From Octopus vulgaris (taxonomy: Eukaryota), in contig OX597834.1 in assembly GCA_951406725.2 (NCBI GenBank), forward strand, positions 9,548,001-9,612,000: DNA of 64,000 nucleotides. Direction: 5' to 3'. The position numbers and the translations under genes are program-made. The notes beneath the pieces are model-generated. The model saw only the letters and a program-made list of their open reading frames with translations, had not been told where the DNA came from and did not search any database. Position 1 is the stretch's first letter. Every line of letters starts with the position of its first letter. Below are positions 4,728 through 35,452 of this stretch, piece after piece.

Positions 4728-5119
4728 ATTAGAAATATTGAATTTCTAAATGTCTCAGAGAGACATGAGCGTTGGTGGGGCGATATAGGGGTTGTATACT
4801 GTCAACATAACGTGACAGTCCCATAAATAGAATCACACTGCCGCTATTTAGCCCTAGGAAGCATCGACACTTCCTGTCGGCTTTGACACATTCCTGTGTC
4901 CTTATATTTGCAAAGGGGAAGCAAGCACCCCGTCAGCAAGGATTAGCACCTGGAGACATGTTTCTGGGTCTTCTCCGTCATCAGTCCAGGGAAGTAAGTC
5001 CTGCTAGCTGAGATGGCTGCGACCAATTTGTAAAAATATATAATATTTTCAGTGAAATTTATTCACTGGCTACCAAAATTAGAAATATTGAATTTCAAAA
5101 TGTCTCAGAGACATGAGCG
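4728..5119 (-). mobile_element. 306 bp hammerhead-bearing insert (4772-5077) between 44/42 bp direct repeats; retrozyme/PLE-like
   Basis: ATTAGAAATATTGAATTTC(T/A)AAATGTCTCAGAG(AG)ACATGAGCG at 4728-4771 and 5078-5119; internal HHR at 4949-4990; no ORF. Confidence 0.75.
4949..4990 (-). ncRNA. Minimal type I hammerhead ribozyme motif
   Basis: Minus strand CCUGGA-CUGAUGA-C-GG(AGAAGAC)CC-A-GAAA-CAUG-UC-UCCAGG: perfect 6 bp helix I, intact CUGAUGA and GAAA, palindromic ACAUGU helix III, GUC triplet. Confidence 0.8.
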
Positions 5120-5960
5120 ATGGAATCAGTCCATAGAAACTCATGTCTAAGCCGTGTCTGTAGTCTTTCGTTTTCAGATGGAATGAAACTAGAACTGCAA
5201 TATGTAATGTACCATGTCATTATCTCACCACCGTGTTGTCTATTGAAGGAGATGTAGCTGCTATTTCTTGCACGTCTGCCGACCACGTAGTCCTTCCGTG
5301 TTCCCGCGTTTGTATTGACTTCAATCGCTTACTTAACTTTATACTGAAAGATAAATATACTGGTGCCCACAGTATCAGACACGCATCAGTTAGTCGCTCG
5401 TACAAGTAGGTTTCCTGTCCCAACGAATACCAATTCACTTGTAATACAAATACGTTTGAGAAATCATGCAAATCATAGAGCTTAATTCGTTTCCCTCCGA
5501 AATTGGTTAGCTTGCTTTTGCATATTCCGTGAAGCAAAATACACGAATATTATGAATGAAAATAAATATACATACAAAAACTGCAATCGTTTTAAATTAT
5601 GGACTCTGTAAATATCAGTTTTCTATGTAAACGAGACTCTCGGGGCAAACGTCTGTCATGGGAGAAAGAGGCAGCAGTGTAGTATGAGTACTTATAGTTT
5701 AGTGTGGACGACTTGTTGCAAATGCTGCTTGTAATTAGAGTGACACTAGACTCAAGTCTCGTATTGCACCAGATTCAAGTGACTTCATTGCCTGTGAGCT
5801 ATACGATGAGTGACAATGTGAAATAACAGTTTCGTGTTCCAGACGCACACACACACACAGTCTCGCATACACCCATAAAAACATACACACAAACAAAACA
5901 AAAACTAGTAGCCAAGCTTGTAAAAATGGTATCTATTTTATTCGACATAAAGCTGTAAAC

Positions 5961-6005
<45 letters not shown>

Positions 6006-6006
<1 letters not shown>

Positions 6007-6400
6007 GCGCAGGAGTGGCTGTGTGGTAAGTAGCTTGCTTATCAACCACATGGTAAGCAAGCTTCAGTCCCACTGCGTGACACCTACTATAGCCTCGGGC
6101 TGACCAAAGCCTTGTGAGTGGATTTGGCAGGCGGAAACTGAAAGAAGCCCGTCGTATATATGTTTATATATGTATATATGTGTGTGTCTGTGTTTGTGTG
6201 TCTCTGTTTGTCCGCCCAACATCGCTTGACAACCGATGCTGGTATGTTTACGTCCCCGTAACTTAGCAGTTTTGCAAAAGACACCGATAGAATAAGTACT
6301 AGGCTTACAAAGAATAAGTCCTGGGGTCAATTTGCTCGACTAAAGGCGGTGCTCCAGCATGGCAACAGTCAAATAACTGAAACAAGTAAAAGAGTAAAGA
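6006..6400 (+). mobile_element. SINE family A (tRNA-like head, internal TA/TG microsatellite, LINE-like tail)
   Basis: GGCGCAGGAGTGGCTGTGTGGTAAG head to GGCGGTGCTCCAGCATGG...GAAACAAGTAAAAGAG tail; small internal deletion and inversion. Confidence 0.9.
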
Positions 6401-6401
6401 G

Positions 6402-6432
<31 letters not shown>

Positions 6433-6480
6433 GTGTGTGACGAACTCCATAACATAAACTTTGGTTAGCCTCTGCCATAT

Positions 6481-6522
<42 letters not shown>

Positions 6523-7030
6523 ACAAAAAGAAAGAGAGAGGGAGAAGCGAGTGGGAGTATTTCATTTAGTCTCTTTACTATATAATATTAAATATCAAAT
6601 AATGAAATATTAATGTTTTCGCGTTCACCTCCAACATTTCAAAGTCAGAATAAATATTAGGCATTTACAGGAGATTTTTTCGTGTATAATTCTACTACAA
6701 ATGTATGGCTTTGAGCCAATGTAGTAAATTGACAATCAATGTATACATTCTTTGTTATATAAGCTGCTTACATATATATATATAACAGCATTGACTTCCA
6801 GTATGAATGCGTAGGATTTTGTCTCCTGTTCAGATCCACTGAAGCTGAACATGTTAACGACGTCTTAACAATGTTCTAGCGTTCAACCAAATCCGCATCG
6901 ACTACACAGTTTGCTTTTTCTTTACAAATATATTGTAAGCTTTACCTATAAATTGCTTATAAATATACACGTACATAAAGCATACAAACATTATACATGA
7001 ACTTATGCGCACACTTACGCACACAAACTA

Positions 7031-7079
<49 letters not shown>

Positions 7080-7193
7080 CATACGTACACACATTCATGT
7101 ATGTGTGGGAGGGTATCGTTGCGTGTGTGCGTGAAACTAATTGTCAAACAATCACAAAAAATTATTGAGGTAATCCAATATATATATAATACT

Positions 7194-7460
7194 GTGGAGG
7201 CACATGGCAAAGTGGTTAGAGCAGCGGACTCGCGGTCGAGGGATCGCGGGTTCGAATCTCAGACCGGGCGATGTGCGTGTTTATGAGCGAAACATCTAAG
7301 CTCCACGCGGCTCCGGCATAGAGTAATGGCGGCATTTCTGCTGACTCTTTCATCACAACTTTCTTTCACTCTTTCCTCCTGCATCTTACAATTCACCTGC
7401 ATCTTACAATTCACCTGCGAAACCTATATTCCAGGCGTGGCTCGAGAAGGAACAAATAAA
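7194..7460 (+). mobile_element. SINE family C, 5' part
   Basis: tRNA-like head GTGGAGGCACATGGCAAAGTGGTTAGAGCAGCGGACTCGCGGTC...GGTTCGAATCTC; homologous to 24559 and 56407 copies; 18 bp internal tandem duplication CCTGCATCTTACAATTCA. Confidence 0.8.
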
Positions 7461-8385
7461 TTTCAAAAAACAATACACAATGCTATACAAAGCAAATTAA
7501 AATTGTTGCACTTAATCTAAAAAGATTAATTATATTTTACTGAAAACCCGGATAGAAACGAATAAATATGTCATTGTAATACGACAAAATGAATTCCAAA
7601 AGCCAAGTATTATATTCATTTTGTGGGTTTGGGTTGGGTTAGACAACCATTATTAGAAGAAGCATCTACGCTCTGCATCTATAGGTCTTGTGGCGTACTT
7701 TTTCTGGTACTTGCCCATTATAGAAGATTATTGGATGTCACTACGGAGGGGTAACATGAAAGCAGGCCACATTTTATTACATTTACCTCACCAATCGACT
7801 GTCCATTAATTTAATCTGCGAAATCTAAATTAGGAATACACATACATACAGACTTACATAGAAAAATACAGTCACACTCACTTATGCAAACTACTTTAAC
7901 TAAAACCCTTCAGAATATTTTGTCTGTCTGGCACTCAAACGAATTTAACAATCCAACGACCTAAACCAACTTTCAGTAACGCAGTGTTAATAAAAATATA
8001 TAGCAATAAAGAATGCTGCGTAAAACTTGAATCACAATTGCATTCAATGTGCATTCAGTGAAAAGAGTATAAAATGAAGAAGAAAGTTGATAGAAGTTGA
8101 GGCTGAATCAATCACCAAAAGCATTAACCAAATAAAACCTCAACCACTGCGTCGTTCGTGCGTTCCCTCGGACAATCTAATGCAATACAAATTACTTGAC
8201 CAATAGCGTTCTCCTAGAAACTAGAATTTGTTCGTGTTTAGCATGTTTCTCTCTTTCTGTATATATCGAATTCCAGACGCTTCGTTCCGAATCTCTCATT
8301 GTTCACGTTATCTACTACCCTTCACTGGACATTCTCTTGATACACACACACACATATAAATACATACACGTATATGTAACCACAC

Positions 8386-8431
<46 letters not shown>

Positions 8432-8643
8432 CCATATATATATATTTAGCCACACACACATATATATATATAACATATATAGCCTTACAGATATATATAA
8501 ACATACATAAATAACACAAATATATATATATATATATATAGCCTTACACAATTATATATAAACATACATATATAACACACACATATATATATATATATAT
8601 GTATATATACATTTAACCACACACAAATTTATATATGTAAACG

Positions 8644-8688
<45 letters not shown>

Positions 8689-8762
8689 TTTTCTCTACTT
8701 CCAGAATTCGAGTATTATTCTATGTGCTTCGAGTATTCCAGTATTATTTATCTGCTTACACT

Positions 8763-8805
<43 letters not shown>

Positions 8806-9386
8806 CATATGCACACACAATACATACAAGTATATGCACGTACACATTTGTATGTGTGTATTAGCAAAAATTTGTTAGATGTCTCAAGATATGACAGTTT
8901 GGTAGATGCCACTCATTAACAAACACTCTTGGCTTCTAAGTTAAAGGAAAGTTTGACATTTGCATCGAAGACTCGGCCAGTTGACGACCATTGCCAACAT
9001 AAAATGAATTGTAATCGGAAATGTTTGTACTTACCTCTCTATATTAATATAGACAGGCATATAGATAGATAGATAGAGAGAGAGAGAGGGATAAAGAGAT
9101 ATTCAGATGCATACATGGGCAAATAATCAACACGTGTCCTATTTATGGATAATGATTCTATAGCTATATCACTATCATTATGTATCTATATATCTATCTA
9201 TCTATCTATATATGTATATATATGTGTGTGTGTGTGTATGTATGTATACGTGTGTATGTATAAATATGTTTGTACATATATATATATATATATATATACA
9301 TGCATAGTATATTTACCAACAGTATATTGAATAAATGATATGCCATAGTGGGTTACACCCATAACCCCTATCTTACTTTGTACTAT

Positions 9387-9429
<43 letters not shown>

Positions 9430-10311
9430 CATGCATACACACATAATATATAGATGTCGCTTGCTTGATAAATAGATAGATAAACAGAGGAAAGGGTGAA
9501 TTTTAAGCAAAGAATATCTAGTCTTTGGCTCAATAAATTGATCGTATCACATCAGGGCAGAATTCTTAATAGATCGTTCTATTTCGTAAACACATTTCGC
9601 ACTATGGATATTTATTTCAAGGAATGGCCTTTTAGATACAACCTTTTATTATTTATCTCTTCACTCTTCGCTTGTTTGTTTATAGTTTTGTTTTAGTTTT
9701 ATTTGTTGTTCTTGTTCTTGTTCTTTTTCCCGACTTGCTGACTGGTTAATATTAGACCGAAGCAGATATATCAACCGTTGCAATTGCATTCCTGGCTATG
9801 TTACTTTGCAATATCGAATCGGCAGACAAAGAGAAAATAGGAGAGAGAGAGAAAGCGAAAAAGAACAACAACACCACAATCTAAAAGGAAAAAAAAAGAG
9901 TAACAACAAAAACAATAGACACTACTAACAAAAGTGATGTAGAAGAACCAATAACTGCAGTTGTATATGCAGCGAAATTGGACATTCTACTACATACACT
10001 GGGAACGGTAATGCTTGGCAGTTTTTATAGCCTATCGATTATGGAGTGAACGTTACAAGGAAAGAACCTGCTAGCAATACTTTCCATCGACTGATGCTCG
10101 TGAATAACTCTTCTAACGCTATAACTATACAGATCACAATCTTGAGAGACCATAAAAACCGCCGTGTGAACGTATGAATAGCATAAACTGAGCTGAACAT
10201 TTTATGTATCTATTTATTTATGTATTTATTTTCGAAAGCTACAATGGCAACTAAAACGTGGATGAGCATCTAGAGAAATTTTAATTCTTTTTGTCTTAAT
10301 CAACCATGATT

Positions 10312-10440
10312 TTATCATTATTATTATTATTATTACTCTTATTATTACTATTATTATTATTACTATTATCATTATTACTATTATTATTACTTTTATTACT
10401 ATTATTATTATTGTTGTTATTACTATTATTATTGTTATTT
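10312..10440. repeat. (ATT)n/(ACT)n microsatellite
   Basis: Direct reading. Confidence 0.9.
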
Positions 10441-10672
10441 GTGTGTATGTGTAGAGATAGTAGTTAACATGTTTGGCAAACCGACAGGAAGGCACCAGGA
10501 ATACTGCTTCTTCGAAATTTCCTCGCCGATCAGGTCAGATATGTTAATGTGCTATGCTACCTCTGCTACAGAATATATTATGTACAGCTGATTTGAAAGG
10601 AACATTTCGGCGAAGTAGTGATGGAATTATTTTCGGTTCTTGAAATGCTGCCGTGGTCGAGTTTCGCCGTCC

Positions 10673-12364
10673 AACATCGCAGGATCAGTTTATTTACTGT
10701 CCGATTGGATGTACTCTGTGTTCCAATCCATAGTGTATCAGATACTAAGGAAGTGATTTTAATCTTACCATGAAAAGAAGTACTTTTCTAAAACAATGAT
10801 GGCACTACAGAAGCAAAACCGTATTTTATGCACACATATATACACACACACATGCACATTTAAAGTGTAGCATCATACACATGTGAAGTTACCCTTATGC
10901 ACATTTACTCGCATTCGTAGATACGTTCATATTTTGTGTATGGGGTGTGTACTCACACGAAACTCCAGTTTTCTCTGAATCTATTTTTCGATGAAACACT
11001 TATAACATATTATATCATATCAGAAAACCTCAAGTTATTATAATTACAATACTATTGTTGCATTATTCCCTTAACTATGTTGAGATTTCCAGATGCACGA
11101 CACCAATTGTCTCTACCTCGTAAAATATACTTAAAGCACCCGTCCATTTCAGCGGCGAAAAAATTATTGAAATATGGCGAATACATTTTTCTAATAAATA
11201 CCTATTTTAAGTTGATGAAATTACCATCTAAAGATTTACAGTATGAAGCACTGAAGTGATTTCTACCGGTGACTTCTCCCGCTTAAACACTCCGTCTACT
11301 TCAAAAACTGAAATTTCAGAACTGAAATTTTAGGAAATAAACTAATATTATCGTCCGAGATATTTATCGATTCATGCCATCAAATTTCCAAGCAATCGTT
11401 GTCATCCGAAATGATTTATAACGACACAAAACCACATCAAAAAGCGGAATACCTGGGAGAGTGAGCGCAATGATCAACACTACAGCATAATATTCTGCGA
11501 CGAAATACCCCCAGAATGTCTTTCTTATACTATACAAAACGAGCTATCTTTGGCTATATTTATTATGAATAGGGTATATGCTTTTTCAATCACAGCAATG
11601 GCGCCAAGCTTCTTTCAAATTAAATCCATGCTACTTTGATATTTGTTATTATATGTGCGACAAAAAGCACCCATGCTAATGACATCACAAAACTTATATT
11701 TTCCGTTATATCATCTGTCTGCGTAAATATATATGACTATCAGTTCTGCCAAATATTTTGACGTCTGCGTTATGTATGAGGGTGGAAGAATATTAGAAAT
11801 AAGGCAATAATTAAGATTTGCTGCAATTTTGTACTCCAGTCTGTAGTTCATGGGGAAGTTTAATAAAATCAACAGATGTTCGAGACGTTTTGATGTTACC
11901 ATCAGTTTACAAGTTTTTTGTATGCTTCTGTGATTGTGTGTGAGTGAATATGTGTGTGTGTGTGTGTGTATGTATGTTTATGGCTGAGAATAAGAGAGAG
12001 AAGGTGAGCGATAGATGGAGTGGCTGGTTATATGGTTATAGCTTGGTTTACAGACGTCTCAGTAAAGTGCTGATGACGAATGAAGCATATTTCTTCTCGC
12101 TTGCTATGTACACACACAGATATATGTGACTATGTGTATAAGAGTGACTTCACATGCGTGTGAAACTACACAGTGAATGTGCATGTGTGTGTGTATGTGT
12201 GTGCATAAAATACCACTGGTCCGTCTAATGCCATCATTGTTTTAGAAAGGTGACTCCTTTCATGGTAAGATTAAAACCACTTGCATGGCATCTGATAGAT
12301 TATAATAGGATTAGAACGCAGAGTACATCCAATCGGGCATTAAGTTTATCAACCCTGCGACGTT
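10673..12364. repeat. Old long inverted repeat pair (arms about 10673-10904 and 12132-12364, ~1.2 kb spacer)
   Basis: Shared blocks in opposite orientation: CCGATTGGATGTACTCTG, TTTTAATCTTACCATGAAA, TTTCTAAAACAATGATGGCA, GTATTTTATGCACACA, CATGTGAAGT. Confidence 0.8.
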
Positions 12365-12369
12365 TGCCT

Positions 12370-12433
12370 TAATAACTGACGAGATGCCGGAGCAGATTTC
12401 CGCCACCGACATCCGAAACTCGGAGCTTTATTA
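12370..12433 (+). ncRNA. Type I hammerhead ribozyme motif with U16.1-to-C change (probably inactive)
   Basis: UAAUAA-CUGACGA-GAUGCCGG...CCGACAUC-C-GAAA-CUC(G)GAG-CU-UUAUUA: 6 bp helix I, long helix II, helix III with 1 nt loop; downstream sequence homologous to 54500-54548. Confidence 0.7.
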
Positions 12434-12934
12434 TGCCAACCGAATAACTGTCACATATTATACTACACACACACACACACACACACATAGATATATGCAG
12501 CCGAAGTGAGTATGTTATATTCACCCGTTCAATCTTAACGATGCTAATAAACAGTTTCCTAATAAATTAAGATTTGTCGACTATTTAATGTCAAATAACT
12601 TGTCGCAAGTCACTTGTAAAATCATTGACAAATATTGATTAGTTCCTACCTAATTTCATGACACATCTGGTGTTTCTTTTTACAACACATACCCTTATAA
12701 CCCAGTGTCTTAGGGAAACATTGACGCACATATATAACCTTGTATATACGCAAGTGTGTCAAGATATGTGTAAACTTTACGCCCCGATGATCAATGATTT
12801 TTATTCTCGTTGTCATATTTACATAATATTGAATGAACGATAGTAGTTGATTACTACATGTTGTTAGAATGTAAAAATAAAATAACAATAAGAAATACTT
12901 GAAATTAAGAATGCAGACTCTGAAAGATGCGTTC

Positions 12935-13110
12935 GGGGAGAACGGTTAAAACGCCGGGCGAAATACTTTCGTCCGTCTTTACGGTCTGTATTCAAATTCC
13001 GCCGAGGTCGACACTCTTTTCATCATTTGAGGGACGATAAAATAAATACCAGTTGTACAATAGTGTTGATTTAATAGTTTTAGCTCTTCAGCCCAATGTT
13101 TCAGAACCCC
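12935..13110 (+). mobile_element. SINE family B, degraded
   Basis: CGCCGGGCGAAAT...TTCAAATTCCGCCGAGGTCGAC...CGATAAAATAAATACCAGTT. Confidence 0.7.
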
Positions 13111-13395
13111 AAATTAAAAGTGTGCAAAAATCTATACAGTCGCTCTACCTGTTAAATTAGCAGCCCAAAACCCATCACATTTCCCCGTCTTATGATATAC
13201 AAAGGTATGTCCATTAATGTGGTTGTAATTGCATAATGATAGTAAGACTAGTACTATAGTTCACCTCGAGTATGGGCATAGCTGTTGTCTTGCGATCGCA
13301 AGTTTACAGATTGGTCTATGAGGCAGCTGAATTTATAAGAAAATATTTCTCTTCGACCATCCAAATCTAAACACGCATACACATATTCTCTCTCT

Positions 13396-13815
13396 CTTTT
13401 ACTCTTTTACTTGTTTCAGTCATTTGACTGCGGCCATGCTGGAGCACCACCTTTAGTCGAGCAAATCGACCCTGGCACTTATTCTTTTGTAAGCCCAGTA
13501 CTTATTCTATCGGTCTCTTTTTGCCGAACCGTTAAGTGACGGGAACGTAAACACACCAGCATCGGTTATCAAGCGATGGTGGGGGGGGGACAAACACAGA
13601 CACACAAACATATACACACACACACATACATATATGTATATATATATATATACACATATATACGACAGGCTTCTTTCAGTTTCCGTCTACCAAATCCACT
13701 CACAAGGCAGAGGTCGGCCCGAGGCTATTGCAGAAGACACTTGCCCAAGATGCCACGCAGTGGGACTGAACCCAGAACCATATGGTTGGTAAGCAAGCTA
13801 CTTACCACACAGCCA
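13396..13815 (-). mobile_element. SINE family A
   Basis: Reverse complement of family A, tail TTTTACTTGTTTCAGTCATTTGACTGCGGCC to head CTTACCACACAGCCA. Confidence 0.92.
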
Positions 13816-14180
13816 TAAAAATGACACAAATAATCCTTTCGCCTCGTACAGTCAATAAAATAACTAATATCTAGAGCGAGGTGTGTCCTAACTCTCTAAA
13901 TACTGTTTCTTAAAATTGTATAATAGTAATTATGTAACCAGCTTAATTGAGATATTCTCTTATTAGGATCCATTCTTCACAAACCAACAAAACTCAAATG
14001 CTATCGAAATGCACTTGGTGATTTTGCCTGCACTAAAACAGGATTATAGGATTATTTATTCCATTAATTTGCATCCATCCTATTCTGTCTTTTCTATATT
14101 CTTGGTTGCTTCGCTGAAATTCTGTAGAGCTTTCTTATGACGCATCGCACTCTGATCATGTACAATATATATATATGTAT

Positions 14181-14389
14181 ATATATGTATGTATGTATAT
14201 ATGCATGTATACCGCATTAAGGACATATGCATGCTATTAGAATGTGCTGTATATAATATGAGATAATATATATATATGCATATATATATATATATGTATA
14301 TGTATGTATATATGCATGTATACCGCCTTAAGGACATATGCATGCTCTTAGAATGTGCTGTATATAATATGAGATAATATATATATATA

Positions 14390-14395
<6 letters not shown>
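14181..14395. repeat. Tandem duplication of a ~110 bp unit within TA-rich sequence
   Basis: GCATGTATACCGC(A/C)TTAAGGACATATGCATGCT(A/C)TTAGAATGTGCTGTATATAATATGAGATAAT occurs twice. Confidence 0.9.
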
Positions 14396-14437
<42 letters not shown>

Positions 14438-14451
14438 TATATATATATATA

Positions 14452-14491
<40 letters not shown>

Positions 14492-14686
14492 TATATATAT
14501 ATATATTTATATATATACACAAGACTATTGAAAAGGTTGCAAGACGCAACGAAAATTTTAGGAAAATAAAAAATGAGTGCGTTAAATAATAAGACACAAA
14601 AAGAAAATTACTCTCCCCAGACACAACAAAATATGCTTCAACACACGAACACACATATTGAATCTTGTAAACCAAATCCAAAACCG

Positions 14687-14725
<39 letters not shown>

Positions 14726-15015
14726 TATTGCTGAAAGTAATATCAAATTTATGACCATATCTAATATATTGTCATATATAACGCCTGAGATATTGCGATA
14801 AGCAACGAAATATTGGTTATAAAGACACATGTAAGGCTTTAATTAATATCATGTTCGCCACATTTGTCACATGCTATCACATATAAAATATCTCACCTCG
14901 TTATATATCAGTGTAAATATCACATATAGTCTTACCTGATCTTACATATCATCTCAATATATCGTAAATATGACACATTTAAAGACATGTCAACGCCCTC
15001 AAGTATTATACGTAA

Positions 15016-15337
15016 GTGAGGGCGCGTGGCTTAGTGGTTAGGGCATTCGGCTCATGATCGTAAGGTTGTGAGTTCGATTCCCGGCGACGCGTTGTGTCCT
15101 TGAGCAAGACACTTTATTTCACGTTGCTCCAGTCCACTCAGCTGGCAAAAATGAGTTGTACTTGTATTTCAAAGGGTCAGCCTTGTCACTCTCTGTGTCA
15201 CGCTGATTATCCCCGAGAACTACGTTAAGGGTACACGTGTCTGTGGAATGCTCAGCCATTTGCACGTTAATTTCACGAGCAGGCTGTTCCGTTGATCGTA
15301 TCAGCTGGGACCCTCGTCGTCGTAACCGGCGGAGTCT
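15016..15337 (+). mobile_element. SINE family D, full length with 12 bp target-site duplication
   Basis: tRNA-like head (TGGCTTAGTGG A-box, GAGTTCGATTCC B-box), TGTGTCCTTGAGCAAGACACTT central motif, 3' part shared with family C; TATTATACGTAA at 15004-15015 and 15338-15349. Confidence 0.92.
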
Positions 15338-19689: not shown

Positions 19690-20104
19690 GGCGCAGGAGT
19701 GGCTGTGTGGTAAGTAGCTTGCTAACCAACCACATGGTTCCGGGTTCAGTCCCACTGCGTGGCACCTTGGGCCAAGTGCCTTCTGCTATAGCCCCGGGCC
19801 GACCAATGCCTTGTGAGTGGATTTGGTAGACAGAAACTGAAAGAAGCCTGTCGTATATATGTATATATATATATATGTGCGTGTGTATGTGTTTGTGTGT
19901 CTGTGTTTGTCCCCCTAGCATTGCTTGACAACCGATGCTGGTGTGTTTACGTCCCCGTCACTTAGCGGTTCGGCAAAAGAGATCGATAGAATAAGTACTG
20001 GGCTTACAAAGAATAAGTCCCGGGGTTGACTTGCTCGACTAAAAGGCGGTGCTCCAGCGTGGCCGCAGTCAAATGACTGAAACAAGTAAAAGAGTAAAAG
20101 AGAG
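19690..20104 (+). mobile_element. SINE family A, full length
   Basis: Complete head (GTGGCTGTGTGG A-box-like, GGGTTCAGTCCC B-box-like), CORE-like CACCTTGGGC-AAGTG, internal microsatellite, GTAAAAGA tail repeats. Confidence 0.95.
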
Positions 20105-20134
20105 TATGTGTTTGCCTGTGTGTCTGTATATATC

Positions 20135-20549
20135 ACTCTCTTCTCTTTCTCTTTTCTCTTTTCCTTGTTTCAGTCATTTGACTGCGGCCATGCTGGAGCA
20201 CCGCCTTTAGTCGAGCAAATCGACCCCGGGACTTATTCTTTGTAAGCCCAGTACTTATTCTATCGGTCTCTTTTGCCGAACCGCTAAGTGACGGGGACGT
20301 AAAACACCAGCATCGGTTGTCAAGCAATGCTAGGGGTACAAACACAGACACACAAACATACACACACATATATATATACATATATACGACGGGCTTCTTT
20401 CAGTTTCCGTCTACCAAATCCACTCACAAGGCATTGGTCGGCCCGGGGCTATAGCAGAAGACACTTGCCCAAGATGCCGCGCAGTGGGACTGAACCCGGA
20501 ACCATGTGGTTGGTTAGCAAGCTACTTACCACACAGCCACTCCTGCGCC
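20135..20549 (-). mobile_element. SINE family A, full length, tail-to-tail with the previous copy
   Basis: Near-identical reverse complement of 19690-20104. Confidence 0.95.
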
Positions 20550-23620: not shown

Positions 23621-23654
<34 letters not shown>

Positions 23655-24559: not shown

Positions 24560-24776
24560 TTTGAGATTCATATAGTAAAGTGGAAAGAAATTAGGCCAGA
24601 CCTGGTCTGAGTTTTCGTGCTAGATGGATTTACATAAGAACATTGCGATATACATATATGGGTGTATAACGAGGAGTCAGCTTTACTGTGCCTAACTACA
24701 GGAAGAACCTGTCTAATGCTGGACGACAATTTGAAAATAAATGCTGCTTTCAATTAGTAGCGAATTATATATCAAA

Positions 24777-25216
24777 CTAGCAGCATAGTCCGGCGGTGCC
24801 CGGGTATGTAAGAGCCACTAGTAGGCAACGGCTAATCCCAATCGGGTCCTTTCTCTCAAGGGAACGAAGGCGCATGTGTAAGTTGCAATGTCTTCTCTTC
24901 ACTCGAATACTTTTGTGTATACGATGTTCCTAGCTGTCCCTTTGGGCGATAAAAAGGTCGAGTTGTGTCCCCTAGACAGAAAATGTGTTGCATATAAAAA
25001 GCTTAGATTCTCGACCCCATGTCGAATTTATCGATTCTTTTCAGAACTGGAGGAACTTTTCAAAATTTTCGCTGCGTCAGTTTTGAATTATGACATTGGG
25101 CTATGTGTGTGTCAAGTCTCATCAGAATTGGTTGAAAGCCGTGGTCAGGGTGAGGGTACAACCTGATAGACACACAGACACACAGGCAGACAAACTGCCG
25201 TTTATATATAGAGAGA
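24777..25216 (-). mobile_element. Non-autonomous Helitron
   Basis: Minus strand begins TC(TCTCTATATATAAA), ends with GC-rich hairpin CCGGGCACCGCCGG then CTAG, inserted between A and T with no TSD. Confidence 0.8.
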
Positions 25217-26269
25217 TAATTATGTAGATAATTTAACAGGGACAATTGCCGATTTGATATGTATATGAGAAACAGCTAATGCTAAATGAAAAGATGTTGT
25301 AAAAATAGTAGAGAAACGAAAGGCCCATTAATGTGTCTTAGTATGGACTTGAGAAATTATAAAGAAAATCTACGTCGAAAATACTTGCATTGCGTTCATA
25401 AAAAAATACACGCCGTTATCCCTCAATTGTGAATCAAAGGAAACCTACACCGCTACAAGGTAACGGAAACATATTACGTGTCATTTAGGAAATGACATGC
25501 ATCAACAGAGAGTGGTCTTAATACTAAGAGTGGAAAGATACACAGAGCGGAAGGAGTACATTTCGATATTAACAGAAGCATGAAAAAGAGCGGTAAAAGA
25601 TGGAGTCTAAAACTCCATTTAATGGAGAACCAGTCGATCAGGAAATGCACTTTGTTTGCATTCCTTTGTACCAAATACAAGTGCACATTCCTGCTTGTGA
25701 AATACTCATCTAATCAGCCCAGTCTCATCACATTTACACATAGCGCAGTAATCTAACATACATAAAGCCTCTTCCCCAACACTTCCTTTTACATGAGTGA
25801 ACTGAATAAAAACACTAAAGATTTCTTACATAATTTATACAGTAAATTATTTCTGTAAGTACAAACATCAGTTAATGAAAACAAAGTATCTGATGGGTGA
25901 TGCACACCCTGTGCGAAGATGTTAATGTTATTATTATTGTTATTATTAGTAGTAGTAGTTTCACCATTATAGCTACTTATACTCCTGTTAAATTATGTAA
26001 TCAGCTCGTAAATAAACGAAACTCTCCGAGTACAAACACGCACGCACACACACTGAGTCGCATATCTATGTATGTATTTATGTATGTTTGAAGATAATCA
26101 AAGAAAATTTTCATTTCGAGCCATTCACGTAATGAGAATTTCTGCCAAATTTGGTGAATATCCGTTCAGTCGTGGCCCAATAATTTTGCAAACAGACAAA
26201 GATGAGTGATTACAATACCCTGCATTCGCTTATGCACGCGGGGTAACCATCATTGTTTCCAAATTGTAG

Positions 26270-26635
26270 CAGAGATCTGGATTTATGAGGGCAGGAACAA
26301 GTCGATTACGACGACTGCAGCCCTTGAATGCTACTATATTTTACTGACCCTGAAAATATGGAAGGGCAAATTTGACGTCGGCTCGATTAGACCTCAGTAT
26401 GTAAAGAACAGAAAGAAATAATAAGTAGAACGTCTGAAATTTGGAGGAGGGTGTAAACTATAACATCGACCCCAGGACATAGGTAATAGTTCGATCTTAT
26501 ATAGCGTAAATCGATCTCGAAAGGAAAAACGGCAAAGCCGACTTCGGTGGATATGGAACTCAGAACATAAGGACGGATGAAATGCAACTCAGAATTATGT
26601 AGGGTGCGCTAACGATTCTAACATCTCACCACCAT
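26270..26635 (-). mobile_element. Two degraded SINE family B copies in tandem
   Basis: Two rounds of (AG)TCGA..AC..CGAC..CAG / GAAGGGCAAA..GAC.TCGG / CTCAG motifs. Confidence 0.65.
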
Positions 26636-26904
26636 AAAAGTGAAGATAAAAATGAAAATAGTTAGCTACAACGACAACAAAAGCAAACATGTTTATAAAA
26701 AAATGTAATCGTTGTTTTTCTAAATACAAAAATACAATCAGGTAACGGGAAATTGTCGAGATGATTTTAGGGAAATGAGATAAATGCGTTCGATAAAAGC
26801 ATTCGTGAGAAAAAATAATAAAACTATACTAGAAAAATAAAACCTACTTTTTACGTAGAGAAATCTAGTGTAATTTGATAAAAGGTGTGAAAAGATATAA
26901 GATG

Positions 26905-27006
26905 CAATTATATATATATATATATCCATGTATATATGTGTGTATGTATAAATATTCGTGCATGTATGTTTATATATATATACATACATATATATGTATA
27001 TATATG

Positions 27007-27098
<92 letters not shown>

Positions 27099-27225
27099 TG
27101 TATATATATCTATATATGTATATATATGTATATATATATATATCTATATATGTATATATATGTATATATATATCTATATATGTATATATATCTATATATG
27201 TATATATATCTATATATGTATATGT
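26905..27225. repeat. Compound (TA)n/TATG/TATC microsatellite
   Basis: Direct reading. Confidence 0.95.
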
Positions 27226-27837
27226 GTGTTTATATGTCCTTTGTTGACTCTAGAAATTCTGTAACAATAAATACTGATGAACAAGGTAAAGCAAGTACAC
27301 AGTATAGAATAGATAACAAGCAAGAAATAGCTAACGTTAAATAAAAGCCTATCATAGGTTTTTTGCGAGTAAAGGTATGAAAGTTCATTGATAAAACTGA
27401 ACTCAGTGTTGGTTTCTGAGTCAACAAGAAACCATACTTTGCATAATTTCAAATACGATGATTAAAATCAAAAGAAGTCTTACTATGTGTTAAGATGTGT
27501 GCATAACCTCGCCTTTCCTCTTACGTTTATATCTGTATCAGTACAATTAAGCTTCCGCTTACATATGCGTACGTATATGTGTGTGCGTGTGTGTGTGTGT
27601 GTGTATTTATAAACACGTGTATGTCAAATGTATACGTACTCAGGAAAAACTAAATTGTAAGGTCTGGAATTTCAAAATGGCAGAGAGTATATGATGGAAA
27701 TTATTCAAGATTTATATGGCATCAGGACAAATTAGCTTCGCGGTCAATTGAGGGCAATAACTCTTGTAAAACACACACGCACTTTCCCTCTCTCTCCTCC
27801 TGTCTCTCTCTCTATTAATCTCTCTCTCTCTCTCTCT

Positions 27838-27875
<38 letters not shown>

Positions 27876-27976
27876 GGATAGATGTATTTGTATACATATT
27901 CATACAGACATTGATATACACTGCTCTTTCTCTCGCATTTACTCACATATAAATGTGATGTACATATCTACCTGTA

Positions 27977-28023
<47 letters not shown>

Positions 28024-28589
28024 GCATGCACTCACATACATATATATATATATATATATATGTGTTTGTTTGTATGTATTACATGTAAGTGTGTGTATCT
28101 ATATTTCTCTATATGTCTGTATATAATAATATACATTGATTGATATTAAATCGTGTGGGTTTTTTTATGCCGCACTCAAAATTACTTTCGATTGAAATAT
28201 AATCATTAGCCAGAAATGGAAAACGTTTTTCGTTCATTTATTAATTAAAAATCAAACTTGTGTTCACTTTTAATATATTTTAGTACGTTTATATGAAATA
28301 CAACACATTAGTTGTGTTTCTATAAAGCACAATTAAGACCATGACTAACATTCAGTGAAAACGTTTGGAAAAAGCAATATTTTATTCCAGCTTTCGACAT
28401 CAGTCATTCTTACCAAATGATACTGTTTCTGTTATAACTAATACTGCTATTACGCTGAACTGAGTGAGAATTATGCCAATTATATGAACTTAAAGTGTAA
28501 ATTATTTCGTCCACTCGTTATAGATGGCTATCATATGTGATCTCGGAGTGGTGTTGCAACGAAGAACATACAAACTCGGTAGTAATGTT

Positions 28590-29420
28590 GATTTGGAATT
28601 TTGGCTCAAGGCCATCAAGTCCAAGTCGGAAGGCAAGTGAATTACCTCGGCCCCAGTTCTCAAATTATTTTATCGACCCTGAAAGCAAAGCAGGTCTTGG
28701 AAGTATTTGAACTCAGAACGTAAAGACAGAATTCCTAAAAGCATTTTGCGAAATGTCTTAACGATTCAGCCAAGTCTCCGACTTAGAAACTCCGTATTAA
28801 TATAAGATATTTTATCCGATTCTCTGTTACTGATTATCCACTGTCCGGATTATACCAATACATCTATCGAGTTTAGGTAGAAAGCCACTGGTATCAAGCG
28901 GAAAGTGTTAATTGGTTACATCGACCCCAGTACTTGACTGGTACTTTGCGTTCTGTATTTCAAACGGGTGATAATCGAAGTTGACCTCGGCGCGATTTGA
29001 AGTGAGAACGTAAATATCAGAATTACCGCAAATTATTTTCTCCGCGACTCTAAAGATTCTGCCGCCTTAACGACTCAGTAATCCTTTCTTCTATAGATAC
29101 GAGGTCAGATAGTTTGGGGTAACGGTTCGAGTCGATAGCCTCAACCCCAGTGTGCTCAATTAATACTTGTTTCATTGATCCTGGAAGAGTAAAAGGTAAA
29201 GTCGACACACAGAATGAGAAGAGGCATAGTGCAGCAATGTTGTCGCGAGAGGCTTGAGCCGGTTACATTGCCCCCCAGTGTACGACTGGTGCGTATTTTT
29301 TGTACTCCGACATGATGAAAGCTAAAGTCGACCTCAGTGACATCTCAACACGGCGCGTAAACAAACAGACCATATATCGCCAGACATTTTTCCGACGTCA
29401 AACTCTTTGCGCGCTTGATG
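28590..29420 (-). mobile_element. Cluster of four degraded SINE family B-like copies
   Basis: CCCCAGT...GAAAG..AAAGTCGAC-type blocks recur near 28650, 28925, 29145 and 29272, all in the same orientation. Confidence 0.7.
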
Positions 29421-29605
29421 ACATTTTTTATTGATTTTGAATCTCAGAAGCCAAAGTGCTAATTGAATTTTTACTTTTTTTTAATGTAGCAGTATTACCA
29501 AACATTTGATAAAATCATAGCATATGGCATACATTTTTATAACTAACATTTTATAATTGAATAAGCAATGAAAAGGCGTAGAAAATAACTCAAACTCAGT
29601 CGTTT

Positions 29606-29893
29606 TGAAAACCTCCCCCTTAGTGAAAGCGGAGGCATTTTTTGGCCTCATGACTAGCAAGAAGTAATTAGATTTTGGGATGGATCCGGTACCTGACAAG
29701 GAATCTGGATTATTTATCCTGATATTTTACTTAATTTTTGGGAGCGGTCGGGTTCATTTTTGGTATTCTAGCTTGTGAGGGCAGTCGAGTTTTTCTCAAA
29801 TATTCTTATTTAAGAAAATCATCTCTCGCTAGTCGTTGAGAGGGCGTTGGTGTTCCCTTGACAGAGGTTTGCGTATTCTGAGTGCTCTTGTTT
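29606..29893 (+). mobile_element. Helentron-associated (DINE-1/HINE-like) non-autonomous element
   Basis: 5' ACCTCCCCC with nearby inverted partner GCGGAGG, 3' subterminal TTGACAGAGGT followed by short hairpin GCGTATTCTGAGTGC and T-run. Confidence 0.55.
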
Positions 29894-30579
29894 TCTATTA
29901 TTCTTCTACAGCAATCTTTTGTAAAAGTTAAATGAAACCTTTATTATTAAAATACATTCATTTGTTAATACGATGAATGGGATAACCTTTTAAGCCACCT
30001 TAACATCAGGTCCAACTAGAAATAGCAGCTAAATCCTACGTTACCGGTTTAATACTTGATGTACTTCTTGAATCGCGTTTCTCTGTTGAATAAAAACAAA
30101 GATCATACGCACCAATGCCTCGATGACTGTTTATGTTCGATCGTATTGACATCAGTGAGTCTCTCTTGCAAGGCGAGTAAGTTTAGTAGACTTTTTCAAC
30201 TGAGATTTTTAGTTTTACGCTCACAAACATAAATAAGAAAAAAATGTAAAATACACACAACATATGTGCGTGCGCGTGTTTGTGTCTGTGCGTGTGTTAT
30301 GCTATAGAACGTTGATACAATTACTCAGATTATGAGGTAGCTCTTTGTATTTTAGTATTTTAAAATTCGGTTTTGTTTCGTTGGGAATTGGGAATAATAT
30401 AACGTAAGAAATATATAATTCATTCTTTTGAACTTTTCTTCGTTTCATTTAAACCAGTGAGTATGGCAGCTACTTTCCAATCGTATATTATTTGACTGAA
30501 ATATACGAATATTTATAAAATACCCAAATTATCCTTCATAGATATGCATTCCTGTGTGTGTTTTTGTGTTTGTGCATGA

Positions 30580-30631
<52 letters not shown>

Positions 30632-30656
30632 TATTTGTATTTATGTGCTGAGTGTA

Positions 30657-30713
30657 TTCCACTGATGAAGGCAGAGCATTTTTTATACAAAGTCAGAAAT
30701 CCGGGATCTAGAA
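30657..30713 (+). ncRNA. Minimal type I hammerhead ribozyme motif
   Basis: UUCCA-CUGAUGA-A-GGC(19 nt)GUC-A-GAAA-UCC(G)GGA-UC-UAGAA: intact core, AUC triplet, helix I 4 of 5 paired; starts about 35 bp after a (TA)n tract. Confidence 0.65.
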
Positions 30714-30877
30714 ATATCCAGTAATTTTTTTACCAGTTTATTTTGTCTCTTTGTTTTCTGTCCTGGTGCTATATGAACATTTAATGTGGTCTAAGAGTCA
30801 AGTTTTGACTGCTATTTTCAGTGTGGTGGTATCTCTTAAATACCCCAATTTATAATTATAATTGTAAATAATTATTC

Positions 30878-31098
30878 GAGCTAGGCAGAAACGTTAGCAG
30901 GCCAGGAAAAATGCTTAGCCGTATTTTGTCTGTCGTTACGTTGTGAGTTCAATTGCCGCCGAGGTCGACTTTGTCTTTCATCCTTTCGGGGTCGATAAAT
31001 AAAGTACCAGTTACGCACTGGGATCAATGTAATCGACTTAATCCCTTTGTCCTTGTTTGTCCTCTCTATGTTTAGCCCCTTGTGGGCAATAAAGAAAT
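30878..31098 (+). mobile_element. SINE family B
   Basis: GCCGAGGTCGACTTTGTCTTTCATCCTTTCGGGGTCGATAAAT...AGCCCCTTGTGGGCAATAAAGAAAT. Confidence 0.9.
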
Positions 31099-31189
31099 AT
31101 ATTACATTTGAAAGGCTTTAGTCCCATGCCGGCCACTTGACAAGATGGATATTTAAATTTCTATCTTATCCTTATCTTTATTTATATAG

Positions 31190-31248
<59 letters not shown>

Positions 31249-32370
31249 ATTGATAGATAGATAGATAGATACATAGATAGATATACAAACATTCATAAAT
31301 ACACATATATTGAGTCTGATATGAAGGGGACAACTCATTAAAATCATATTGCAATCTATATCTGAAAATATGTTCGATATCTATAAAAGAAATCTCGGTA
31401 GCAACGTATAGTTTCCATAATAGACAGAATGGTTTACTTATATCCTCCCCATCCAACAAAATTTATTTCTCATAAAGATCATCAAATCAGTTTTTCTCAT
31501 AATCCTTGGCACAGGCTAATCGATCAGGACAATTTAATCTGAAGATTGCAGCAAACATATCCCATATAAAAATTCATTTCTAAAATTATCCAGAATAGTC
31601 ATTCCATTATAGAACGTTAGTAATGTAGAAATGGAATGCTTAAACTGTTTTCGTGCGACAAATGGATTTGTTTTTTTTTTGTTGGATAGAGTTTTATCCT
31701 TCTACGAATATCTGATAATTAAATTTCTGGTCCTCATCTTAGCCACCGAGAAATCTGACGCTAAAATTGTTATCGACAAACAACAAGGAAACAAAAGGAA
31801 ACACCTAATTTTTATTTTTCATTCAGCTCATCGTCGTTGAAATAATTTAACAATAAGAATATCAATCGTAGTCCTTCATGGAAGCATAAATTGTGTTTGA
31901 AATATTGGCATTAAATTTTGACACGAGTGCAGCAATATTAGTAGTTGATCTCATCGTTTGCTTTTTGTTTTATATATGTTGCTATTAGGTTAGACATGGC
32001 TTCTGCCAATCTTTTGTCGAAACATATCTAACACATCCAAGTCATCTAAGTTATCGCTGATTTACTAATTTTATACGTCACAGGAATATGATTTCATGGA
32101 AGCTCGACAGCTATTTCTAGCAGGTTTAATCAGCAAATCACTTGGTTTCTTTCTTCTTTTCATATCAAGAATGTTGAAAAATCAACCAGCATGCCTTGGC
32201 CATTGTATATCCCTGGAATTTTTTCTAAAGGGAAAATAGACGATGTGCTTCATATCGAAATACCTTCGGTTAAACAATTTTTGCTAAATCGAAGTTGGTA
32301 GAAATTTAAACATTGCCAAAATAACCGTATGCCTCATAAGCTGTCTACTCCGGTTCCATTGTTGGTAGAC

Positions 32371-33509
32371 AATAATAATAATAATGGTACTGCAGGCTAC
32401 AACAGAACAAATAGCATGGTACAGTAGGCTTCAGATTGCAAGCTCTACTCATGCTAGACTTCCAACAAAACCTTAATTAAAAGCTATGTAGCGAAATACG
32501 ACCTCATATAAACATTCTTTATTCTAGACGGGAGATGGCGATTTTACTGCGCATTGTAGCACAAAGATTTTTTTTTAGCTAGTTGGGGCAAGGTATGTAT
32601 CGGATCTGCTGGTTGATATAACTATAATCCAGATACAACAGACATGCCAATAAGATACAGCTTTCCTATTGATTTTTCCTACTGTTATGAGCTTTCGATT
32701 TGTGTGTAAATAATTAAAACAACACAAAAATTGCTGAGTGTTTTGTTTGGTTTGATAATGTTTTGATAAGTTTTGATCACATGGTATATCAAGATATACT
32801 TGAACTGAGCTGAAAAATTTATTTCCTCTCAGATGGAGGGTCAATCATGAAACGCCAGATTACTTTTCAACCAGCGCCATATCAAGTTATCTAAATTCAT
32901 ATATTTACTATATTGAAAATTTACTGTCTGTCACTAGCAATTAAACATCAATATGTAGAGAAATGACAGGATTTAGGGTTAAGATAAATATCAACGTTTC
33001 TGGAGTCTTCATTCGTGGTGTGTTATACATAAAGTGAATTTGATTAGTTAAGTGTCTGTGTTATGTTTCGTTTGATGTTATCAAACTAAACGTTCGGAAT
33101 CATGCACACATGTGCATTGTGTTAGGAATAAATTGCAATACAAATGCATCCAAATAACTATTGCACTTTGGATATTACTTTGATATCATACAGTCATACG
33201 AACATCTTTCATTTCAAGTTTATTTGATGTCTTCCAGCCTCAGACTAACTAGTATCATTGCTTTAACTGAGAAGAAGAAGAAGAAGAAATAAACAGAATT
33301 ACTGCTCCTAAAAATCTATAAGTGGTTATTAACGAACAGAAAGATGGTGCAGTAATAGTTAGTGATGCTAAATTAATTAAAACATGTGTAGTAAACACAT
33401 TATTAATTAGATAGTAATAACGTCAGTTACCTAGATCATTAAGGATTCGAATATCAGATTGCTCTAAGGATATGACGCTAGTCCATTAAATTTAATTCTT
33501 CTTTATTTC

Positions 33510-33544
<35 letters not shown>

Positions 33545-33846
33545 CAAAAACTGTGGCTTGCAAAGATTCTCTGTTGTATGTGGATTATAAGTAGATTAAC
33601 CAGCAGATCCGATACATACCTTGCCCCAACTAGCTAAAAAAAAAAAAGCTCTTTGTGCTAGAATGCGCAGTAAAATCGCCATCTTCTGTCTAGAATAAAG
33701 AATGTTTATATGAGGTCGTATTTCGCTACATACCTTTTAATTAAGGTTTTGTTGGAGGTCTAGCATGAGTAGAGCTTGCAATTTGAAGCCTACCGTACCA
33801 TGCTATTTGTTCTGTTGTAGCCTACGGTACCATTATTATTATTATT
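32371..33846. repeat. Young long inverted repeat pair (arms 32371-32642 and 33570-33846, ~0.93 kb spacer); possible foldback/long-TIR element
   Basis: Arms are reverse complements over ~270 bp with scattered substitutions; both outer ends are (AAT)5; no TSD or transposase seen. Confidence 0.9.
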
Positions 33847-34078
33847 TTATCATTGAAATTTTAGATCGATTAAGTTTAAACAAGATAGTTCTCTAAAGTA
33901 CACAAAATTCGTTGCACTGAAAAATGATTAATACATTTTAAATACAGATCCAAGACATTTGATACCTAAGTTTACCTAGAAATCTAAGATGATTACTACG
34001 TTGAGGTGATCCGCAAATATCATGAAGAAACATTCCAGGCGCACCAAATTCAGATTAGCTTTTCATTTTATTATACCA

Positions 34079-34454
34079 CTAGCAGTATCGCCCGGCGTTG
34101 CTCGGGTTTGTAAGGGAAATAACTATATAAACATTTTTAGAGAGTTATAGCCAAAAAATGGAAAAAAATGGTAATTTTGTTTTTAAATCGTTGACTCGTA
34201 GACATTTTTAGAGAGTTACTTCCCTTATATAATAACGAAAAAAATGCATTAAAAATGGGGAAAAAATTATGGTAATTTTTCTTTTAAATCGTAGACTCAT
34301 CGTAGACGCGCGCTAATACCCTAAAGGGCTCGATATGAATCACGACTATAAGATACCCGGTTTTGGTTAAACTGCACCGCAAAATGTGGGAGTAGTTAGG
34401 AATCTAAATCGTAGGAGACAGACACTCACACAACTTCACTTTTATATATAACGA
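34079..34454 (-). mobile_element. Non-autonomous Helitron
   Basis: Minus strand TC(GTTATATATAAAAG) start, CCCGAGCAACGCCGGG hairpin, CTAG end, A|T insertion site; internal imperfect duplication of ACATTTTTAGAGAGTTA...TTTTAAATCGT. Confidence 0.8.
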
Positions 34455-35229
34455 TATAACCTAGCGGAAGCAGTAATCGCTGTTGTGATCCCAAACTCTG
34501 ATCTGGACAACAGGCGCTCTACTTGCATTACGTTGTAAATCACTGATGTAAAATATTTGTTCTCCAAAAATAATAGAATAAAATAAAAAATTCTCGCTGT
34601 TTCCATTCGAGAGGACTAGAGACAACTAAATGTCTTCTGAGTATTTGCTAACTAGTATTGACTACTTTGTATACCAATAAGTTGACGTGGTGATATTTAT
34701 ATGGTTGGTTAGCATACAAGATAATAAACACTCTGTTCTCAGTTAAGTCACTTAAATAAGGAAATGTTATATATCACTAAAAACATTACCTGCGCAACAC
34801 AACAACAGAAACAGCGAAAAATGGAAGCACAGAAAAGAAAACAGTTATAAAACGAAATCTGACACTTTATTTAGAAACGAATGTTATTTATGCTTTATTT
34901 TTAACTTTGAAAATATGTATTTTACATATAAAGACACGTTTGTGTTCTAATCAAATTTATTACCTGTTAGATTTGTACAACTTATGAAATTAGTTGTATT
35001 AGAATTTTTAATCGCACCTGCTCAATGACAAGTAAATATTTTATTAACAGAAAATTTACGATAGTCGCACACTGTGCATACACTAAGAGTCTAGACAACA
35101 TTGTCTGAATACCATGAATATTCAAATAGCTATTAAACATACGACTGAAGTGGTAGAGTCAGGGACTTGTCCAAATTCTTGACCATAGAAAGGTAACTAA
35201 ATGCGAAAATTACATATATATATATATAT

Positions 35230-35452
35230 ATATACTTTATTTTAAGCAGCAGAAAATTCAACAAAATCTGTTACTCTGAGTTTCTCGTTGCCGTTCATCA
35301 GACAGTTTTTGCTAGAATGAACGGCAACGAGAAACTCAGAGTAACAGATTTTGTTGAATTTTCTGCTGCTTAAAATAAAGTATATTACTCTACCACTGGT
35401 ATTTGAGTACTCTTTTTTCCACCTTGTTTCACATTTATGTGTTTACTCCGGT
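35230..35452. mobile_element. PLE-like inverted pLTR fragment: perfect 69 bp palindrome plus tail, embedded in (TA)n
   Basis: 35230-35298 is the exact reverse complement of 35317-35385 (18 nt spacer); TA tracts on both sides; contains a hammerhead. Confidence 0.8.
35268..35305 (-). ncRNA. Minimal type I hammerhead ribozyme motif
   Basis: Minus strand CUGU-CUGAUGA-A-CG(GCAA)CG-A-GAAA-CUC(A)GAG-UA-ACAG: 4 bp helix I, GNRA-capped helix II, GUA triplet. Confidence 0.8.

What the first reader, a model, noticed from the sequence alone, without database searches (positions are those of the whole stretch)
4949..35305. Three different hammerheads share a non-canonical N.A mismatch at 10.1-11.1
Seen: at 4949 the core reads GA-C-[GG..CC]-A-GAAA, at 30657 GA-A-[GGC..GUC]-A-GAAA, at 35268 GA-A-[CG-GCAA-CG]-A-GAAA. 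Established: most natural HHRs have a G10.1-C11.1 pair; a single extra A after A9 is known from the CChMVd viroid HHR and is what the 61236 family shows. At 35268 the A.A is present in both palindrome arms, so it predates the inversion. Inference: this is a recurrent core variant rather than decay, and strict descriptors would miss it.
Basis: partly seen in the sequence, partly recalled or inferred. Interest (0 to 1): 0.72.

Follow-up and report, generated by a model that had tools for sequence, protein, structure and literature searches.

The report
Transposon hammerheads with unpaired helix-II base
These are hammerhead-shaped RNA motifs in very common jumping repeats of this genome, and the odd unpaired spot is shared by whole subfamilies rather than being damage, but sister subfamilies carry a normal pair or other mismatches there, so it is likely a tolerated weak point that would slow self-cutting, similar to variants already in print.

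Summary
All three N·A junctions are at the stated places and are subfamily traits. A·A (35301) has 3,899 exact matches, 100 of 100 listed A·A, and sits in the terminal repeat of an intact Hydra-clade Penelope-like retrotransposon. C·A (4984) is in 66 of 73 copies of its subfamily. The 30662 family has A11.1 in 98 of 100 listed copies. It is not a special N·A motif. Sister subfamilies of the 35301 element amplified with A-U, A·G and A·C (2,664 matches). A sister subfamily of the 4984 repeat carries U-A and U·U. The position is a substitutable 10.1-11.1 pair, likely lost more than once. Mismatches here are in print: U·U in 14 of 25 Hydra-clade families, C·A in one algal element, and an axolotl U·U hammerhead that cleaves. 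A 2014 descriptor already allows extra N10 and N11. I did not find high-copy A·A/A·G states described, but could not read Lünse 2017. Cleavage is untested. Earlier scan notes describe a different helix II mismatch (C·C) in another genome. Verdict: new variant of a known kind, modest interest.

The parts
4949..4990 (-). Family B type I hammerhead motif, C10.1·A11.1 (4977/4965); this copy has lost one helix II pair relative to its family
4728..5122 (-). Family B ORF-less repeat insertion (unit about 337-350 nt, circularly permuted, partly inverted here) that carries the 4984 motif
30655..30715 (+). Family C type I hammerhead motif, A10.1·A11.1 (30669/30695); helix I and outer helix II decayed in this copy
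30588..30876 (+). Family C ORF-less repeat fragment beside a (TA)n run; permuted repeats spaced 358-497 nt in three loci
35268..35305 (-). Family A complete type I hammerhead motif, A10.1·A11.1 (35294/35285), same sequence as in the intact element L092
35317..35385 (+). Inverted second arm: truncated hammerhead from A6 on, A·A at 35321/35330, no C3-G5 and no 5' strand of helix I
35228..35455 (.). Whole family A insertion: two inverted, 5'-truncated terminal-repeat pieces of a Hydra-clade Penelope-like element between (TA)n runs; the plus arm runs on into the 5' leader
61236..61270 (-). Family D minimal hammerhead with one extra A after A9 and a G10.1-C11.1 pair (comparison case, no mismatch)

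Best explanation
The three motifs are type I hammerhead-shaped sequences of high-copy repeats (one in the terminal repeat of an intact Hydra-clade Penelope-like retrotransposon, two in short ORF-less repeats), and their unpaired N·A is a subfamily trait that likely arose by substitution in an ordinary 10.1-11.1 pair and is predicted to give a slower, dimer-assisted self-cleaving RNA. Shown: copy numbers, subfamily states, the intact 727-codon frame flanked by two A·A motifs 3,365 bases apart, and compensatory helix I changes in family B. Inferred: in family A the order A-U, then A·G, then A·A; in family B C·A, then U-A, then U·U. Also inferred: loss of the pair costs about 1-2 kcal/mol in helix II and is offset by a long self-complementary helix III formed between two copies. 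Inferred from published PLE models: the RNA is cut slowly and either re-ligated into a circle or often left uncut, so reverse transcriptase can read through the cut site, as nearly all genomic copies require.
For: Family A: 3,899 matches with both sites left open, 100 of 100 listed A·A. 2,664 matches with non-A at 11.1; of the first 100, G 53, U 39, C 8 by hand count, all A10.1. These classes differ at linked sites; four sites group G with A and U with C, and the U class is the most diverged (6.1% vs 1.7-3.1%; 92 copies). [quoted passage not shown] Family B: in the CCUGGA background 73 of 73 have A11.1, with 57 CG, 7 TG and 9 CA at the CpG, which is symmetric decay of C10.1. Genome-wide 70 have U10.1 (58 U-A, 12 U·U) against 10 CpA, mostly in a subfamily with two compensatory helix I changes. 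Family C: A11.1 in 98 of the first 100 of 559 matches; A·A in 30 of 30 best-scoring loci. Census: 12 of 31 hits have a mismatch, in 7 lineages. Folding: A-U -2.1 vs A·A -0.4; U-A -4.4 vs C·A -3.5 kcal/mol; the A·A dimer minimum shows helices I and III between strands. Precedent: the axolotl U·U motif cleaves 22% in an hour as a monomer and better as a dimer (PMC7229834 section 15).
Against: No cleavage data for any of these sequences. Perreault 2011, citing Ruffner 1990, says U·U is the best-tolerated mispair, so N·A may be much slower. The G class is less diverged than the A class in my sample (1.7% vs 2.4%), so divergence alone does not order them, and no outgroup roots the series. A hammerhead-like dimer is the clear energy minimum in only some of the 12 copies folded. 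No autonomous partner was found for B or C, so their link to Penelope-like elements rests on analogy. 0 of 42 family A arms start at the predicted cut, so genomic copies give no positive sign of cleavage.
Confidence: 0.68

Rival explanations
1. The motifs are catalytically near-dead passengers: the core drifts because cleavage does not matter for copying, and only the fold is kept.
For: All four bases occur at 11.1 in amplified subfamilies. U4C is in 19 of 19 G-class, 14 of 19 U-class and 3 of 3 C-class copies. 41 of 42 arms run across the cut site. Naiad elements spread without canonical hammerheads (PMC8557442 passages).
Against: Core boxes are kept across families whose helices share no sequence. 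Helix I covaries in family B. The A·A class has canonical U4 in 47 of 50 copies. U4C still allows viroid infectivity (PMC3088659 passage). The U·U axolotl motif cleaves.
Confidence: 0.14
2. The junction is the known extra nucleotide after A9 plus a second inserted A before G12, with the true G10.1-C11.1 pair kept one step further out.
For: In B and C the first Watson-Crick pair is G-C. The 2014 descriptor names these slots extra N10 and extra N11. One row of that paper's Fig. S3 has AGAAA after a G-C helix.
Against: Sister subfamilies have A-U or U-A at the same two places with no length change. In family A the next pair is C-G. Only 1 of 31 census hits has the 5' extra alone. Sequence cannot fully separate the two numberings for B and C.
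Confidence: 0.1
4. The three copies are individually mutated descendants of paired hammerheads.
For: Two of the three window copies are decayed at other positions.
Against: The mismatch is shared by most copies of each subfamily.
Confidence: 0.01

Closest known systems
Hammerheads of Hydra-clade Penelope-like elements (Craig et al. 2021, PMC8557442; read: passages, section 11, supplement Files S1 in part and S2)
   Same: Type I motif near the 3' end, palindromic helix III of several bases, (TA)n insertion, RWK/DKT/CxCX5C protein motifs. 15 of 25 listed families have a mismatch at the base of helix II (14 U·U, 1 U·C). PLE-X1_cBra, outside the clade, has C·A.
   Different: No listed Hydra family has N·A, and the passages I read do not discuss the mismatch. 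Here A·A, A·G and A·C occur, with a 2-bp helix II and GNRA loop, and the unit is 3,365 bases (theirs generally under 3 kb).
Axolotl retrozyme hammerhead HHR_Amex2 (Cervera and de la Peña 2020, PMC7229834; read: passages and section 15)
   Same: High-copy type I motif with a mismatch at the base of helix II and a stronger helix III; short repeat units of similar size to family B.
   Different: U·U rather than N·A, long tandem arrays, and shown to cleave and form circles. None of that is shown for B or C, which occur mostly as 1-2 permuted units.
Minimal PLE hammerheads (Cervera and de la Peña 2014, PMC4209133; read: parts 1-2 of 4 of the text, whole supplement PDF as extracted text)
   Same: Located in terminal repeats and proposed to work as slow dimers. 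The descriptor allows extra N10 and N11. Fig. S3 has a Hydra U·U row and one AGAAA entry, which by line order (29th of 56, my count; columns not kept) would be an A·A case.
   Different: Their consensus has only the 5' extra base with G10.1-C11.1 and a 2-nt helix III, like the 61266 motif. The three motifs here have 4-8 nt between A15.1 and U16.1.
Natural U10.1·U11.1 hammerhead (Perreault et al. 2011, PMC3088659; read: passages)
   Same: A natural mismatch at exactly this pair.
   Different: A rare U·U case, not high-copy retroelement families with purine mismatches.

Membership tests
Type I hammerhead ribozyme | Core CUGANGA...GAAA...UH in type I order | tested here: met
Type I hammerhead ribozyme | Helices I, II, III around the core, with covariation | tested here: met
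   Helix I compensatory changes in family B; helices differ in sequence between families; window copies B and C partly decayed
Type I hammerhead ribozyme | Watson-Crick 10.1-11.1 pair (usual, not universal) | tested here: not met
   C·A, A·A, A·A; natural exceptions are published
Type I hammerhead ribozyme | Match to an Rfam hammerhead model | tested here: not met
   No hammerhead family at E<=10 in 3 of 3 stretches
Type I hammerhead ribozyme | Self-cleavage after N17 | not testable with these tools
   Indirect test negative: 0 of 42 arms begin at the cut
Hydra-clade Penelope-like element (family A) | Single RT plus C-terminal GIY-YIG frame flanked by terminal repeats with hammerheads | tested here: met
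   727-codon frame in L091 and L092, motifs 3,352-3,365 bases apart; domains read by eye, Pfam gave 0 families
Hydra-clade Penelope-like element (family A) | RWK motif, DKT motif, CxCX5C linker, CxxC/CxH near the end | tested here: met
   LRWKAF, SDKTRN, CNCKNESSC, CRLC, LCRH in the translation, against the definition
Hydra-clade Penelope-like element (family A) | Insertion into (TA)n | tested here: met
Hydra-clade Penelope-like element (family A) | RT phylogeny inside the Hydra clade | not tested
   No tree with published Hydra proteins was built
Non-LTR retrozyme (families B, C) | Short ORF-less unit with a type I hammerhead, repeated head to tail | tested here: inconclusive
   Permuted repeats spaced 337-350 (B) and 358-497 (C) bases; one two-motif tandem (L259); no long arrays seen; no PLE frame attached in 10 paired loci
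Non-LTR retrozyme (families B, C) | Expressed as circular RNA | not tested
   No expression search was made for B or C

The most novel reading that the evidence does not exclude
One recently amplifying retrotransposon lineage has run a natural mutational series through its ribozyme core (A-U, A·G, A·C, A·A at 10.1-11.1, linked with C or U at position 4), and these changes tune cleavage down to the level at which reverse transcriptase can still read through. The subfamily with intact frames pairs the lost base pair with a canonical U4, which would be core epistasis selected between transposon subfamilies and would give a ready test of whether Penelope hammerheads cut at all during transposition.
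Probability: 0.15. Interest if true: 0.62.

Novelty: new variant of a known kind. Interest (0 to 1): 0.32.

Why it matters
Practical: about 4 in 10 descriptor hits in this genome sample (12 of 31) lack a 10.1-11.1 pair, and Rfam missed the three motifs tested, so censuses that demand the pair undercount. Biological: Craig 2021 states that hammerhead function in these elements is still unclear. Family A offers natural, high-copy alleles at 11.1 and at position 4 in an otherwise near-identical background, which makes rate-versus-success comparisons easy. The principle that this pair can be a mismatch is already published, which caps the surprise.

Tried and rejected
Whole-window Rfam scan: the 150 best of 279 matches shown were miRNA look-alikes of (TA)n and palindromes; 129 were not shown. 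Pfam gave 0 families for the 727-residue frame. Autonomous partners for B and C: none by tblastn in the loci held. The PLE-like fragments beside L114 share no continuity with the B unit. CpG decay as the source of U10.1 in family B is accepted for the CCUGGA background (7 TG vs 9 CA) and rejected for the rest (about 63 TG vs 1 CA by subtraction, whose patterns differ slightly). The pattern was meant to catch both backgrounds but caught only one. Pile-up of 5' ends at the cut: none (ungapped estimate, indels shorten some extents). Other window matches: the 62670 match has no relatives in the loci held and the 25125 repeat lacks a clear helix III, so neither is counted as a hammerhead. Papers not held: Lünse 2017, PMC47061, PMC2271363. 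Lünse 2017 and its alignments may already list these states. Searches behind 'not found in print': (listings only, except papers named as read). Li 2026 bioRxiv: part 1 of 5 read, supplements closed. PMC6765202: passages only.
Full report
Setting. The window is G000:C21:9548001-9612000 in a 2.8-Gb, 227-contig genome, 34% G+C and rich in (TA)n. Earlier scan notes call the genome octopus-like; I did not test that. I call the motifs A (C3 at 35301, minus), B (4984, minus), C (30662, plus) and D (61266, minus).

Observation. All three junctions are as described: C·A in B, A·A in C and A, each between CUGAUGA and GAAA, followed by a self-complementary helix III segment, UH and helix I. The plus arm of the 35268 palindrome also has A·A but begins at A6, so it is not a full hammerhead. 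D has one extra A and a G-C pair. My descriptor found 31 motifs in 1 Mb of evenly spaced stretches and none in the reversed DNA. Rfam found no hammerhead at the three motifs.

Family A. With both junction sites left open, the pattern has 3,899 matches, and the 100 listed are all A·A. Same-strand pairs about 3.36 kb apart flank a 727-codon frame, intact in L091 and in one of the two copies in L092. [quoted passage not shown] These are the marks of the Hydra clade as defined in PMC8557442 section 11; Pfam gave nothing and no tree was built. A slightly looser pattern demanding non-A at 11.1 has 2,664 matches; of the first 100, 53 are G, 39 U and 8 C by hand count, all with A10.1. A 3' tail pattern has 7,719 matches. 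The classes are subfamilies with linked differences. Four sites group G with A and U with C, and the U (A-U paired) class is the most diverged, 6.1% against 1.7% (G), 2.4% (A) and 3.1% (C), on 92 copies. I infer A-U, then A·G, then A·A, without an outgroup. The non-A classes mostly carry U4C (19 of 19 G, 14 of 19 U, 3 of 3 C), while 47 of 50 A-class copies have U4. Contigs of runs X16 and X19, coded as other organisms, show the same A/G/U states at 11.1 and U4C.

Family B. 146 matches; of the first 100, 57 C·A, 34 U-A, 6 U·U and 3 others by hand count. In the window copy's helix I background, 73 of 73 have A11.1 and the CpG at 10.1 decays evenly (57 CG, 7 TG, 9 CA), so C·A is that subfamily's state. 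Genome-wide 70 copies have U10.1 (58 U-A, 12 U·U) against 10 CpA. Most of those fetched belong to a subfamily whose helix I has two compensatory changes, in which C·A also occurs. C·A is therefore likely ancestral here and U-A derived. The unit is about 337-350 bases, circularly permuted, without a frame.

Family C. 559 matches to a 3'-side pattern, A11.1 in 98 of the first 100. A·A in 30 of 30 loci, which were chosen by similarity to the window copy and include it. It is also a permuted ORF-less unit in (TA)n. No autonomous partner was found for B or C.

Census. Of 31 hits, 17 have a direct pair (7 from one tandem array), 12 a mismatch (5 from family A), 1 a 5' extra only, and 1 was parsed as a 3' extra but is better read as G-C. 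The 12 fall into 7 lineages: A·A twice, C·A, G·A, A·C, U·U twice. Relatives of three census lineages differ at this junction, on 1-2 copies each. With B and C, 6 of 9 mismatch lineages have A11.1. The position switches between paired and unpaired states again and again.

Mechanism. From established hammerhead structure (recalled), the 10.1-11.1 pair stacks on the sheared G12·A9 pair and G10.1 helps bind a metal ion, so a mismatch should slow but need not stop cleavage. Folding gives helix II -2.1 kcal/mol for A-U against -0.4 for A·A, and -4.4 for U-A against -3.5 for C·A. The A·A monomer is predicted to misfold, while its dimer minimum has helices I and III between strands and helix II within each; this clean dimer appeared in only some of 12 copies. 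The same trade, weak helix II with stronger helix III, is described for the axolotl U·U motif, which cleaves 22% in an hour as a monomer and better as a dimer. Of 42 family A arms, none starts at the cut and 41 run across it, so the copied RNA was uncut or re-ligated. I put 0.68 on a slow, dimer-assisted ribozyme with a tolerant 10.1-11.1 position, 0.14 on a near-dead passenger, 0.10 on the double-insertion numbering, 0.07 on a selected N·A contact and 0.01 on decay.

Prior art. Perreault 2011 reports a natural U10.1·U11.1. Craig 2021 File S2 lists 25 Hydra-clade families: 14 U·U (two rows identical), 1 U·C, none N·A, plus C·A in PLE-X1_cBra, under the heading canonical motifs. Cervera 2014 treats the 5' extra base as typical, allows an extra N11 in its descriptor, and has one AGAAA entry in Fig. 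S3. I found no text on A·A, A·G or A·C states or on switching between subfamilies, but Lünse 2017 was not available.

Verdict. The new parts are the purine mismatches in a recently amplified intact element and the natural allele series. New variant of a known kind; interest 0.32.

Noticed in passing
L225-L254, L137, L219, relatives of window 61266: U4C cores (CCGANGA) are common: most non-A family A subfamilies, a second A·A lineage (L219) and many family D copies. Some CUGA copies may be CpG decay of a CCGA master.
   Followed up: partly
L125:2334-4560: Tandem array of 7 canonical type I hammerheads about 359 bases apart, a typical non-LTR retrozyme.
   Followed up: no
L132, L143, L209, L136, L161: UUGANAA cores (U3-A8 covariation, described for Schistosoma in PMC4209133): 9 hits in 1 Mb against 1 in the control, including a three-copy family.
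   Followed up: no
window 12376-12430 (+): A further hammerhead-like motif with G10.1-C11.1 and a long helix II; 6 relatives in the loci held.
   Followed up: partly
L092:1064-8598: Two near-complete family A elements head to head (99.8% identical over 3,528 bases), one intact and one frameshifted.
   Followed up: partly
L265-L294, window 35228-35455: Most family A insertions are tiny palindromes, and many turn at a short self-complementary site about 14 bases before the core.
   Followed up: no
L032, L043, L119: Family B has two helix III lengths (4 or 8 bases between A15.1 and U16.1), differing by a 4-base duplication that keeps the palindrome.
   Followed up: no
window 20056-20194: A long inverted repeat that scored as a miRNA look-alike in Rfam.
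   Followed up: no
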